In this document: positions 47,001-50,000 of the stretch, piece by piece
Position numbering within the stretch: the stretch's first letter is position 1
Layout: each line of letters begins with the position of its first letter
Assembly (NCBI RefSeq): GCF_017348835.2
Contig: NZ_CP071375.1
Strand: one strand, 5' to 3'
From: Escherichia coli
Lineage (GTDB): Bacteria > Pseudomonadota > Gammaproteobacteria > Enterobacterales > Enterobacteriaceae
Length of the DNA stretch: 64,000 bases
Made by a program: the position numbers

Positions 47001-50000
47001 GGCAAACCGCTGTATAGTGCGTTCAATGATGAAATCCCGGCGATTGTCGATGTTTTTCGCTTTTTCGCGGGTGCGGCGCGCTGTCTGAATGGTCTGGCGG
47101 CAGGTGAATATCTTGAAGGTCATACTTCGATGATCCGTCGCGATCCGTTGGGGGTCGTGGCTTCTATCGCACCGTGGAATTATCCGCTGATGATGGCCGC
47201 GTGGAAACTGGCTCCGGCGCTGGCGGCAGGGAACTGCGTAGTACTTAAACCATCAGAAATTACCCCGCTGACCGCGTTGAAGTTGGCAGAGCTGGCGAAA
47301 GATATCTTCCCAGCAGGCGTGATTAACGTACTGTTTGGCAGAGGCAAAACGGTGGGCGATCCGCTGACCGGACATCCTAAAGTGCGGATGGTGTCGCTGA
47401 CGGGCTCTATCGCCACTGGGGAACACATCATCAGCCATACTGCGCCGTCCATTAAGCGTACTCATATGGAACTTGGTGGCAAAGCGCCAGTGATTGTTTT
47501 TGATGATGCGGATATTGAAGCAGTGGTCGAAGGTGTACGTACATTTGGCTATTACAATGCCGGACAGGATTGTACTGCGGCTTGTCGGATCTACGCGCAA
47601 AAAGGCATTTACGATACTCTGGTGGAAAAACTGGGTGCTGCGGTGGCAACGTTAAAATCTGGTGCGCCGGATGACGAGTCTACGGAGCTTGGACCTTTAA
47701 GCTCGCTGGCGCATCTCGAACGCGTCAGCAAGGCAGTAGAAGAGGCGAAAGCGACAGGGCACATCAAAGTGATCACTGGCGGTGAAAAGCGCAAGGGTAA
47801 TGGCTATTACTATGCGCCGACGCTGCTGGCTGGCGCATTACAGGACGATGCCATCGTGCAAAAAGAGGTATTTGGTCCAGTAGTGAGTGTTACGCTCTTC
47901 GACAACGAAGAACAGGTGGTAAACTGGGCGAATGACAGCCAGTACGGACTTGCATCTTCGGTATGGACGAAAGATGTGGGCAGGGCGCATCGCGTCAGCG
48001 CACGGCTGCAATATGGTTGTACCTGGGTCAATACCCATTTCATGCTGGTAAGTGAAATGCCGCACGGTGGGCAGAAACTTTCTGGTTACGGCAAGGATAT
48101 GTCACTTTATGGGCTGGAGGATTACACCGTCGTCCGCCACGTCATGGTTAAACATTAAGGATAATATTGCAGATCGTAAGAGTATGAGATGATCTTGCGT
48201 ACTGTCAGAGCACTGATTTCTCTGACAGTACGTGCTGCGTGCAAAATCACTACATCAAATAAACCAGCCAAATCTCATAGAGATAAGAGTAAGCAAACCA
48301 ACAGCAGCAAAGACATTTATCAGTACTACAGTTCTACTGGAAACATTCATTTTTGCCACCTTTTATCATTGCCCCTATGTGTATAGTACGGGTTAAGAAA
48401 ATCCGCAATAATACTCATTCTGAAGATGGATAAGGGCAAGTTGCTGTTTGATGTTTTTTTCTCAAACCGGTTAAAAAACTTGATGCACGTCAAAAAATGA
48501 CGCATATTTGCGCGCGTTTTATTCATCTGGCTGGACGCCCGTACATGTCTCTCTATCAACACATGCTTGTTTTTTATGCGGTTATGGCAGCAATCGCATT
48601 TCTTATCACCTGGTTTCTTTCTCACGATAAGAAACGCATCCGTTTCTTAAGCGCCTTTCTGGTGGGGGCAACATGGCCGATGAGTTTCCCGGTGGCGCTG
48701 TTGTTTTCACTGTTTTAAATCTTACTCACTGGCTTGACGGCACCACGCAGACTTATATCATTTGGATAAATCGATAAATTTCACAAGTGGCTAAGGAGAA
48801 AGTATGTCGCATCTGGATGAAGTCATCGCGCGCGTGGATGCCGCGATTGAAGAGAGCGTCATTGCCCATATGAACGAATTATTAATCGCCCTGAGCGATG
48901 ACGCGGAGTTAAGTCGGGAAGATCGCTACACCCAGCAGCAGCGTTTGCGCACCGCTATTGCTCATCACGGTCGCAAGCATAAAGAAGATATGGAAGCGCG
49001 CCATGAACAGTTAACCAAAGGCGGCACCATCCTGTGATTAAAATGAGCGTCTGGCTACCAACCAGGCGCCAACCACAAGTAAAATTGCGCCACAAATTGG
49101 GCCGAACAACGCCCGTAGTGGTACGCCATGACTGCGGAAGATATCCAGAACCAGACCGCCAATCAGCTGGCTGGCGACCAGTACTGCAATAGTTGTCGCC
49201 GCTCCCACATTCTGATATCCGCTGATACTGGCGAAGACAAAAAACGATCCCAGCAAGCCAGGTATAAGTGTCCACCAGCGCACGCTGGACACCAGTTCGC
49301 CAAACCCCGCCATACCTTGTTTAAACCATAAAATAGAAACAAAGAGCACAATCCCCACCAGTGAGTTCAGCAACATGGCGATGAGAATGGTAGAGGAGGT
49401 CTGGGTGATGCGCACCATCAGCGTGTTCTGGACTACCAGACCAATTCCGGCGGCAATCAAAAAGGCAAGGGTGAGCGACTGATTCATCCAATCGCGTCCG
49501 GTTCAGTGCGTTCGTCGAGTTGCAACTGCATAAATGTCAGATCCAGCCAGCGCCCAAATTTAGTGCCCACCTGCGGCATTTGTGCGGTGACGACAAATCC
49601 CAGCGACTGGTGCAGATGCAGCGAGGCCTGATTTTGCGATTCGATCCCGGCGACCATGACATGCTTCCCGCAATCCCGCGCTTCATCAATCAATCGGCTT
49701 AACAATTTACGCCCCAGACCTTTGCCCTGATGATCGGGATGGACATAAACCGAATGTTCCACGGTATGGCGAAAACCATCGAAACTACGCCAGTCGCCAA
49801 ATGAGGCATATCCCGTAACTACGCCATCTTCTTCACTTACCAGCACCGGATAACCTGCTATGGTCCGCGCTTCAAACCAGGCAATGCGGTTATCTGCATC
49901 CACCGTTTGGTCATTCCAGATAGCCGCCGTATACAACACGGCGTGGTTATAAATTTCCGCAATGGCAGCACAGTCGGCTTTGCGGGCAAAACGGATGGAC

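What the first reader, a model, noticed from the sequence alone, without database searches (positions are those of the whole stretch)
48255..48350. 31-codon small membrane protein gene yncL hidden antisense to a spurious ORF
The ORF track only shows a 65-aa plus-strand ORF here (48189-48386). The minus strand encodes MNVSSRTVVLINVFAAVGLLTLISMRFGWFI, matching the small protein YncL as I recall it.
Basis: partly seen in the sequence, partly recalled or inferred. Interest (0 to 1): 0.25.

Follow-up and report, generated by a model that had tools for sequence, protein, structure and literature searches.

The report
Known E. coli small-protein gene yncL

Summary
Window 48350..48255 (minus strand) is an ATG-to-TGA ORF that translates to MNVSSRTVVLINVFAAVGLLTLISMRFGWFI.

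It scores 73.4 bits against NCBIfam NF000537 "YncL" (curated cut-off 35). The surrounding 461 bases are 100% identical to E. coli PE164, where RefSeq annotates yncL at the same place, between patD and ortT. The protein differs from the K-12 reference at two residues (F13V, F20L).

Orthologues occur in 52 enterobacterial genomes, in at least twelve genera. All keep the ATG, a stop at codon 31 or 32, a coding-type substitution pattern, a Shine-Dalgarno sequence, a sigma-S-like promoter and a 3' hairpin.

The 65-aa plus-strand ORF has no family match. Its frame is open across yncL in only 24 of 54 loci, so it is spurious.

Published work reports that YncL is:
- made in the cell (top-down mass spectrometry);
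- under sigma-S control;
- induced by heat, minimal medium and stationary phase;
- cleaved by RseP in vivo;
- able, when overproduced, to depolarise the membrane and condense the nucleoid.

Verdict: already known, low interest. The only mildly new point is that yncL and ortT form a conserved divergent pair.

The parts
48255..48350 (-). yncL coding sequence: 31 codons plus TGA. Product MNVSSRTVVLINVFAAVGLLTLISMRFGWFI, with one hydrophobic span at residues 8-25.
   Evidence: Translation. NCBIfam NF000537 YncL, 73.4 bits against cut-off 35. Identical DNA annotated as yncL in E. coli PE164. Best 18-residue Kyte-Doolittle window 2.44.
48356..48362 (-). Shine-Dalgarno sequence AAGGTGG, 5 nt before the ATG. 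It contains the in-frame GTG at 48357-48359, which some annotations use as the start.
   Evidence: Sequence checked. (A/G)GGTGG is conserved at this distance in most genera. In Klebsiella and Raoultella the GTG is 8 nt from the ATG, so out of frame, which makes the ATG the conserved start. The same conclusion was reached for Salmonella STM14_1932 in PMC5437024.
48380..48386 (-). Inferred -10 element CTATACA (TATACA with a C at -13), which is sigma-S-like.
   Evidence: Sequence. The CTATA core is invariant in 12 genus-level representatives, and CGTACTATAC is widely conserved. A genomic SELEX peak for RpoS holoenzyme lies in the yncL/ydcX spacer, intensity 28.5 (PMC5493296). Expression depends on sigma-S in Salmonella (PMC5437024 and PMC4014581). 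The transcription start itself was not mapped here.
48403..48408 (-). Inferred -35-like element TTGCGG, 17 nt upstream of the -10.
   Evidence: Sequence and spacer length. T(T/A)GC is conserved across genera. Inference only; the simple sigma-70 scan did not report it.
48198..48232 (.). Perfect 13-bp inverted repeat with a 9-nt loop, in the 96-bp gap between the convergent genes yncL and patD. Probable 3'-end hairpin for one or both transcripts. No U-run follows it on either strand.
   Evidence: Inverted-repeat search, RNA fold and flanking sequence. A strong hairpin sits at the same place in nearly every genus shown, with unrelated stem sequences; in Klebsiella and Raoultella it is a canonical A-run/T-run bidirectional terminator. 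patD-yncL is listed among convergent overlapping transcript pairs in PMC12288877.
48189..48386 (+). 65-aa antisense ORF, codon-aligned antisense to yncL. Spurious.
   Evidence: ORF list. No family match. Not annotated in RefSeq. Frame open across yncL in only 24 of 54 loci.
48545..48718 (+). ortT (ydcX), the divergent neighbour 194 bp from the yncL start. It encodes a 57-aa membrane toxin of the GhoT/OrtT family.
   Evidence: Pfam PF10753, E = 1.8e-27. RefSeq annotation. Translation. A divergent pair with a 179-201 bp spacer is found in about 40 of 53 genome hits.
46734..48158 (+). patD (ydcW), gamma-aminobutyraldehyde dehydrogenase, the convergent downstream neighbour.
   Evidence: ORF list. 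RefSeq annotation.

Best explanation
The feature is the E. coli gene yncL.

**Shown by sequence and databases.** A 96-nt minus-strand ORF (48350..48255) encodes a 31-residue protein of the YncL family. The protein has a short polar N-terminus (MNVSSRT), one hydrophobic helix (residues 8-25) and a conserved C-terminal RFGW motif.

**Inferred from conserved signals and published work on orthologues.** The gene is transcribed on its own from a sigma-S-type promoter (TTGCGG, 17 nt, cTATACA). The RNA would be about 180 nt and end at the 48198-48232 hairpin. Translation starts at the ATG, 5 nt downstream of AAGGTGG.

**From the literature on the K-12 allele, not tested on this allele.**
- The protein accumulates in stationary phase, in minimal medium and after heat shock.
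- It inserts in the inner membrane.
- When overproduced it partly dissipates the membrane potential. That triggers the phage-shock response, nucleoid condensation and lower protein synthesis.
- It is removed by the intramembrane protease RseP in vivo.
- Its mRNA is a partner of the sRNA RprA.

I put the gene identity at about 0.98. I put at about 0.5 the view that graded membrane depolarisation ('metabolic silencing') is its native function rather than an effect of overproduction.
For: **Identity**
- Exact translation.
- NCBIfam YncL equivalog, 73.4 bits against cut-off 35.
- The 461-nt region is 100% identical to PE164, where yncL (WP_089709219.1) is annotated between patD and ortT. K-12 J53 has the same layout.
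- yncL DNA is found in 5411 of 5426 complete E. coli genomes.

**Coding status**
- A degenerate pattern fixed only codons 1-8 and 26-29. It found 53 stretches in a collection of 100,044 species genomes. All are Enterobacteriaceae except one contaminant contig, and all stop at codon 31 or 32.
- In the unconstrained codons 9-25, entropy by codon position is 0.97 / 0.37 / 1.50 and pN/pS is 0.44.
- The Shine-Dalgarno sequence and the ATG are conserved.

**Promoter and 3' end**
- Conserved -10 and -35 blocks.
- Hairpin.
- RpoS SELEX peak (PMC5493296).
- The Salmonella orthologue STnc1110 is a 195-nt sigma-S-dependent RNA (PMC4014581; PMC5437024).

**Protein and function**
- Top-down mass spectrometry detection (PMC12529367).
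- Depolarisation, nucleoid condensation and induction conditions (PMC12542507).
- RseP cleavage in vivo (PMC10470546).
- RprA and KilS RNA partners.
Against: - Nothing contradicts the identity.
- For the mechanism, all functional data come from plasmid overexpression of tagged K-12 YncL. No loss-of-function phenotype is reported in the papers I read.
- Purified RseP did not reproducibly cleave YncL in vitro.
- A 3xFlag-tagged Salmonella YncL was not detected.
- The V13/L20 allele in this window has not been studied.
- The hairpin has no U-run, so its role as a terminator is inferred.
- The simple sigma-70 scan did not call the promoter, and the transcription start was not mapped here.
Confidence: 0.95

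Rival explanations
1. The real gene is the 65-aa plus-strand ORF (48189-48386), or the overlapping 54-aa GTG ORF (48232-48396), and the minus-strand 31-codon ORF is incidental.
For: Both plus-strand ORFs exist. The frame of the 54-aa ORF has no stop over the first 90 nt of yncL in 50 of 52 distinct orthologous sequences.
Against: - Neither ORF matches any family or is annotated in RefSeq.
- The 65-aa frame is open across yncL in only 24 of 54 loci, and the 54-aa frame in 34 of 54. Stop-to-stop lengths vary from 3 to 142 codons.
- The openness of the 54-aa frame follows from YncL's composition. A stop in that frame needs a sense codon beginning TA or CA (Tyr, His, Gln), and these are almost absent from a hydrophobic helix. 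This is my reasoning from the genetic code.
- The conserved ATG, Shine-Dalgarno sequence, stop position and promoter all serve the minus strand.
- The protein detected is YncL.
Confidence: 0.01
2. The transcript is chiefly, or additionally, a regulatory small RNA. It was first catalogued in Salmonella as the non-coding sRNA STnc1110, and it would act by base-pairing, with the ORF secondary (a dual-function RNA).
For: - The RNA is short (195 nt in Salmonella, plus a 120-nt processed form) and abundant in stationary phase.
- In RIL-seq and TRIC-seq it forms chimeras with RprA, and in RIL-seq with the predicted sRNA KilS.
- The authors of PMC5437024 raise dual function for such coding sRNAs in general, naming IsrI as their example.
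Against: - The ORF shows coding-type constraint, and its length is conserved across at least twelve genera.
- The protein is detected and has a phenotype of its own.
- The RNA-RNA data fit equally well with yncL being a target mRNA of RprA.
- No Rfam family matches the region.
- Outside the promoter, Shine-Dalgarno sequence and ORF, the untranslated parts are poorly conserved, and the hairpin stems differ in sequence.
Confidence: 0.08
3. YncL's native role is to bind and tune a specific larger membrane protein or complex, as characterised small membrane proteins such as AcrZ, MgtS and CydX do (from my own knowledge of that literature). On this view the depolarisation is a side effect of overproduction.
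For: - Functional data come only from plasmid expression.
- The invariant polar N-terminus (M[ND]VSS[RK]TV) and the RF.W motif are conserved more strictly than a generic membrane-perturbing helix would need.
- pN/pS of 0.30 over codons 2-29 indicates specific constraint.
Against: - No partner is known.
- No solved structure contains a YncL-like chain.
- The authors state that the levels used are not far above native stationary-phase levels for YohP 'and likely YncL'.
- The control membrane proteins MtlA and YqjD did not give the phenotype.
Confidence: 0.3
4. YncL and OrtT work as one module. YncL would either modulate the membrane toxin OrtT (antitoxin-like or helper) or be co-regulated with it from the shared 194-bp region, as a pair of stress-induced membrane-depolarising peptides.
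For: - The divergent yncL-ortT arrangement, with a 179-201 bp spacer, is kept in about 40 of 53 genome hits across nine genera, while patD and ydcY move.
- Both products are small membrane proteins that impair membrane function.
- The search for an OrtT antitoxin tested the intergenic RNA and ydcY. The passages read do not mention testing YncL protein.
Against: - The yncL homologues of Enterobacter, Lelliottia and Franconibacter have no ortT nearby.
- A genome-wide search in the OrtT study found no antitoxin.
- Overexpressed YncL has its own harmful effect on the cell, which does not suggest an antidote.
- Synteny among close relatives can simply be inherited.
Confidence: 0.12

Closest known systems
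YncL of E. coli K-12 (b4598; WP_001310798.1; NCBIfam NF000537; Pfam PF28073)
   Same: Same locus (patD - yncL - ortT), same length, 29 of 31 residues identical. The promoter, Shine-Dalgarno sequence, hairpin and flanks are identical or nearly so (5 differences in 461 nt).
   Different: Two conservative substitutions in the membrane helix, F13V and F20L. The exact 96-nt allele is rare among complete genomes: at most 2 of 5412 records.
YohP, the 27-aa stress-induced small membrane protein of E. coli
   Same: Single-pass small membrane protein. It is sigma-S-dependent and induced in stationary phase, and its Salmonella orthologue was also first catalogued as an sRNA (STnc1330). Overproduction depolarises the membrane and condenses the nucleoid, as with YncL.
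   Different: The two are described as separate proteins with separate genes, and no YohP-like sequence appeared among the YncL homologues found. yohP responds to oxygen limitation and yncL to heat shock. Most mechanistic work (SRP targeting, ppGpp, magainin-2 interference) was done on YohP only.
STnc1110 / STM14_1932 of Salmonella enterica
   Same: Orthologue. It is a 195-nt sigma-S-dependent transcript containing the yncL ORF, with the ATG three codons after an annotated GTG, as in this window. The Salmonella sequences share the promoter, the Shine-Dalgarno sequence and the neighbours ortT and patD.
   Different: Protein about 77-84% identical (for example MNVSSKTVVLINVFAAAGLLGLISLRFGWFA). 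The 3' hairpin has a different stem sequence. The tagged protein was not detected in Salmonella.
Type I toxins and other small membrane toxins (Hok, TisB, GhoT/OrtT)
   Same: Short hydrophobic single-helix peptides that lower the membrane potential when made. YncL and the Hok proteins are both RseP substrates in vivo.
   Different: No cognate antisense RNA or antitoxin is known. The effect is described as sublethal. There is no sequence relationship: only YncL-like peptides were returned from 1.84 billion representatives.

Membership tests
YncL (NCBIfam NF000537 equivalog; Pfam PF28073) | Score above the curated cut-off of the family HMM, over its full length | tested here: met
   73.4 bits against cut-off 35, E = 9.2e-21, residues 1-30 on profile positions 1-30 of 30. 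The local Pfam copy gave no hit. PF28073:YncL is, however, recorded for the orthologues P0035-P0037.
YncL (NCBIfam NF000537 equivalog; Pfam PF28073) | Length of 30-31 residues with one hydrophobic membrane-spanning segment | tested here: met
   31 residues. The best 18-residue Kyte-Doolittle window scores 2.44, at residues 8-25. All 53 homologues are 30 or 31 residues long.
YncL (NCBIfam NF000537 equivalog; Pfam PF28073) | Conserved motifs M[ND]VSS[RK]TV at the N-terminus and RF.W near the C-terminus | tested here: met
   The window protein has MNVSSRTV and RFGW. The motifs also appear in homologues found without any pattern, by phmmer. The 53 genome hits were selected with these motifs, so they do not test them independently.
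YncL (NCBIfam NF000537 equivalog; Pfam PF28073) | Orthologous position: convergent with patD and divergent from ortT | tested here: met
   patD ends at 48158 and ortT starts at 48545. RefSeq records for PE164 and K-12 J53 show the same order. The ortT pairing holds in about 40 of 53 genome hits.
YncL (NCBIfam NF000537 equivalog; Pfam PF28073) | The ORF is translated and the product sits in the inner membrane | not testable with these tools
   Literature on the K-12 allele only: top-down mass spectrometry detection (PMC12529367) and its treatment as an inner-membrane small protein and RseP substrate (PMC10470546; PMC12542507). The original papers (Hemm et al. 2008, 2010) are not in the library.
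Sigma-S regulon small stress proteins | Sigma-S-type promoter (-10 CTATACT-like, with C at -13) and RpoS-dependent expression | tested here: inconclusive
   cTATACA lies at 48386-48380, 17 nt from TTGCGG, and is conserved across genera. RpoS dependence comes from the literature: a SELEX peak in E. coli, and Northern blot, RNA-seq and lacZ fusion in Salmonella. The transcription start was not mapped here.
Type I toxin-antitoxin systems | A cis- or trans-encoded antisense RNA antitoxin that represses translation of a small membrane toxin | tested here: inconclusive
   No Rfam RNA family matches 47900-48800 on either strand. The only antisense transcription reported is read-through overlap with patD (PMC12288877). 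No antitoxin is known. I do not file yncL under this family.

The most novel reading that the evidence does not exclude
yncL and ortT form a conserved two-gene module. They are two small membrane-depolarising peptides transcribed divergently from a spacer of about 190 bp that has been kept across at least nine enterobacterial genera. YncL would modulate OrtT, or the two would act together in stress-induced shutdown of the membrane potential. The passages read from the OrtT study do not mention testing YncL protein as a partner. A smaller possibility is that the rare V13/L20 allele changes activity.
Probability: 0.12. Interest if true: 0.4.

Novelty: already known. Interest (0 to 1): 0.07.

Why it matters
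For genome annotation it is a routine reminder. ORF lists with a length threshold, and some gene callers, miss real genes of about 30 codons and can report a longer meaningless ORF in their place. This has been documented at this very locus: a Prokka mis-call is described in PMC8954029, and old 38-aa and 71-aa 'hypothetical proteins' sit here in GenBank records.

Biologically, YncL belongs to the stress-induced small membrane proteins whose native role is still unsettled. This window adds nothing new to that question beyond a rare two-residue allele and the observation that yncL and ortT stay together across genera.

Tried and rejected
- The search for homologous proteins and the search for related loci both rejected the 31-aa query. 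I used phmmer against the representative library, exact-sequence look-ups and a degenerate DNA pattern instead.
- **Pfam.** The local Pfam-A copy gave no hit for YncL, although PF28073:YncL is recorded for orthologues in the contig index. The local copy probably lacks the model or filters so short a query.
- **Rfam.** Nothing at E up to 1 in 47900-48800, so no curated RNA family (for example for STnc1110) covers the locus.
- **Promoter and terminator scan.** It did not report the yncL promoter or the hairpin. The -10 ends in A, not T, and the hairpin has no T-run. Both were instead defined by cross-genus conservation.
- **Whole-transcript fold.** The fold is not unusually stable (z = -1.17). 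Only the 13-bp hairpin stands out.
- **Solved structures and defence-system profiles.** No match for YncL in the PDB, and none for YncL or OrtT in PADLOC.
- **Original papers.** Hemm et al. 2008 and 2010 and the EcoSal review are not held, so induction conditions are cited second-hand from PMC12542507.
- **Ribosome profiling.** No held paper reports ribosome-profiling data for yncL in its main text.
- **Plus-strand ORFs as genes.** Considered and rejected.
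Full report
**1. Observation**

The minus strand of window 48350..48255 reads ATG AAT GTT ... 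ATT TGA and translates to MNVSSRTVVLINVFAAVGLLTLISMRFGWFI*.

The plus-strand 65-aa ORF at 48189-48386 is also present. So are a 54-aa GTG ORF (48232-48396, +), a 38-aa ORF (48155-48271, -) and a 92-aa ORF (48347-48625, -).

Short ORFs are plentiful here: 55 of at least 20 aa overlap 2.8 kb. The ORF's existence therefore proves nothing on its own. Its identity has to carry the claim.

**2. Identity**

- The peptide scores 73.4 bits (E = 9.2e-21) against the NCBIfam equivalog model NF000537 'stress response membrane protein YncL'. The curated cut-off is 35, and the match covers all 30 profile positions.
- The 461 bases around it match 5415 of 5426 complete E. coli genomes. They are 100% identical to strain PE164.
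- In PE164, RefSeq annotates yncL (WP_089709219.1) at the same bases, between patD and ortT. The wider order is ydcU, ydcV, patD, yncL, ortT, ydcY, ydcZ, mnaT, curA, mcbR.
- K-12 J53 has the same layout. Its YncL is MNVSSRTVVLINFFAAVGLFTLISMRFGWFI.
- The window allele therefore differs at F13V and F20L. These are two of only five differences in the 461 nt.
- The identical 96-nt sequence occurs in at most 2 of 5412 complete E. coli records. The exact protein is nonetheless on record as YncL on 188 contigs.

**3. Is it really coding?**

phmmer against 1.84 billion representative proteins returned only eight hits, all YncL-like peptides. The full-length hits are 30-31 residues long; three are truncated or frame-extended gene calls.

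I then scanned one genome per species (100,044 species) with a degenerate DNA pattern. It fixed only codons 1-8 and 26-29 and left 51 nt free. It found 53 stretches:

- Fifty-two are from Enterobacteriaceae: Escherichia, Citrobacter, Salmonella, Klebsiella, Raoultella, Enterobacter, Lelliottia, Pseudocitrobacter, Pluralibacter, Franconibacter, Trabulsiella and Intestinirhabdus.
- The last is a 459-bp 'Sporosarcina' contig whose peptide is identical to that of Klebsiella pneumoniae. It is surely contamination.

All 53 reach a stop at codon 31 or 32, which the pattern did not require.

In the unconstrained codons 9-25, mean column entropy is 0.97, 0.37 and 1.50 for codon positions 1, 2 and 3, and pN/pS is 0.44. 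Over codons 2-29, pN/pS is 0.30. This is the signature of a translated frame.

**4. The antisense ORFs**

The 65-aa ORF is codon-aligned antisense to yncL. Its frame is open across yncL in only 24 of 54 loci, with stop-to-stop lengths from 3 to 89 codons.

The frame of the 54-aa ORF is stop-free over the first 90 nt in 50 of 52 sequences. That follows from composition. A stop in that frame needs a sense codon starting TA or CA (Tyr, His, Gln), and a hydrophobic helix has almost none. Its boundaries are not conserved either: 28 to 142 codons, and it spans all of yncL in 34 of 54 loci.

None of the four alternative ORFs matches a Pfam or NCBIfam family, and RefSeq annotates none of them. 'Spurious' is the right word.

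Annotation errors at this locus are documented:
- Prokka chooses another frame here (PMC8954029).
- Old GenBank records carry 38-aa and 71-aa 'hypothetical proteins'.

**5. Expression signals**

*Translation start.* AAGGTGG (48362-48356) lies 5 nt upstream of the ATG, and (A/G)GGTGG is conserved there in most genera. It contains an in-frame GTG (48359-48357), which would add Met-Ala-Lys. In Klebsiella and Raoultella that GTG is out of frame, so the ATG is the conserved start. The same conclusion was reached for Salmonella (PMC5437024).

*Promoter.* Further upstream, cTATACA (48386-48380) lies 17 nt from TTGCGG (48408-48403). The CTATA core is invariant in a 12-genus alignment of the yncL-ortT spacer, and T(T/A)GC is nearly so. 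A C at -13 followed by TATAC is the sigma-S-preferred -10 (established knowledge; the consensus is shown in PMC5437024). Published data agree:
- RpoS holoenzyme gives a SELEX peak of 28.5 in the yncL/ydcX spacer (PMC5493296).
- The Salmonella orthologue, first listed as the sRNA STnc1110, is a 195-nt RNA about ten-fold lower in an rpoS mutant (PMC4014581).
- Its translational lacZ fusion needs sigma-S (PMC5437024).

*3' end.* A perfect 13-bp hairpin (48198-48232) begins 22 nt after the stop codon. It has no U-run on either strand. Nearly every genus shown has a strong hairpin at this place, with unrelated stems. Klebsiella and Raoultella have a canonical bidirectional terminator.

A start about 7 nt after the -10 and an end at the hairpin would give an RNA of about 176-180 nt. 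This is an inference. patD and yncL are listed among convergent overlapping transcript pairs (PMC12288877).

**6. What the product does**

This rests on the literature for the K-12 allele.

- *Induction.* yncL is up in minimal medium, after heat shock and in stationary phase (Hemm et al. 2008 and 2010, as cited in PMC12542507).
- *Detection.* The untagged protein is seen by top-down proteomics (PMC12529367).
- *Overproduction phenotype* (PMC12542507):
  - It raises DiBAC4(3) fluorescence, which indicates depolarisation.
  - It condenses the nucleoid in 50-60% of cells.
  - It sensitises cells to magainin-2 and pleurocidin.
  - The paper's abstract attributes phage-shock induction and reduced protein synthesis to YohP/YncL-induced depolarisation.
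  - The control membrane proteins MtlA and YqjD do none of this.
- *Turnover.* RseP cleaves tagged YncL in vivo, including at chromosomal RseP levels, but not reproducibly in vitro (PMC10470546).
- *RNA partners.* yncL mRNA pairs with RprA in both RIL-seq and TRIC-seq, and in RIL-seq with the predicted sRNA KilS.

No solved structure contains a YncL-like chain.

My best reading: YncL is a sigma-S-controlled, heat- and starvation-induced single-pass peptide that lowers the membrane potential in a graded way and is cleared by RseP. All of this rests on overexpression, so I give that mechanism about 0.5. I give about 0.3 to the alternative that it tunes a specific partner protein.

**7. Comparison and novelty**

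This is a member of the YncL family on every feature I could test, as listed in the membership table. It is already annotated in public genomes, so nothing about the gene is new.

Two minor points go beyond the finding:
- The allele is rare.
- yncL and ortT are kept as a divergent pair, with a 179-201 bp spacer, in about 40 of 53 genome hits, while patD and ydcY move. The OrtT study tested the intergenic RNA and ydcY as antitoxins; the passages read do not mention YncL protein (PMC4344625). A functional link is possible but unproven. I put it at about 0.12.

**8. Verdict**

The feature is already known, and interest is low.

Noticed in passing
window 48255-48718; loci L010-L062: yncL and ortT are divergent neighbours with a nearly constant 179-201 bp spacer in about 40 of 53 enterobacterial genome hits, spanning nine genera. 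patD lies anywhere from 93 bp to 6 kb away, and ydcY moves too. The yncL homologues of Enterobacter, Lelliottia and Franconibacter have no ortT nearby. The passages read from the OrtT paper do not mention testing YncL protein as a partner.
   Followed up: partly
window 48255-48350: The window's yncL allele (V13, L20) is rare. The identical 96 nt occur in at most 2 of 5412 complete E. coli records, one of them strain PE164 from a pig in China. Almost all others differ by 1-4 bases.
   Followed up: partly
window 48232-48396 (+): The antisense frame of this 54-aa GTG ORF has no stop over the first 90 nt of yncL in 50 of 52 distinct orthologous sequences. It looks conserved but is a by-product of composition: stops in that frame need sense Tyr, His or Gln codons. 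Its boundaries vary from 28 to 142 codons.
   Followed up: yes
window 48198-48232: The perfect 13-bp hairpin between the convergent genes patD and yncL has no U-run on either strand, so it is not a canonical intrinsic terminator. Other genera have hairpins with unrelated stems at the same place, and Klebsiella and Raoultella have a textbook bidirectional terminator.
   Followed up: partly
L042 (NZ_JAMBOI010000051.1, 459 bp): A 459-bp contig in a Sporosarcina luteola (Firmicutes) assembly encodes a YncL identical to that of Klebsiella pneumoniae. This is almost certainly contamination of the assembly.
   Followed up: no
window 48155-48271 (-) and 48347-48625 (-): Older GenBank records annotate a 38-aa 'hypothetical protein' (for example EcE24377A_1623) and a 71-aa one at these overlapping minus-strand ORFs. 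Neither matches a family. The 90% cluster holding the window's YncL also has a 414-aa MepM/NlpD protein as its representative, which is a clustering artefact.
   Followed up: partly
L015, L019, L030, L035, L037, L054, L055: The YncL homologues of Enterobacter and Lelliottia form a distinct subgroup. They are 30 aa long, end in RFHWF, have an acidic residue at position 25, and have a different upstream region (GCTAYTCTTGAAC in place of CGTACTATAC). They are not next to ortT or patD.
   Followed up: no
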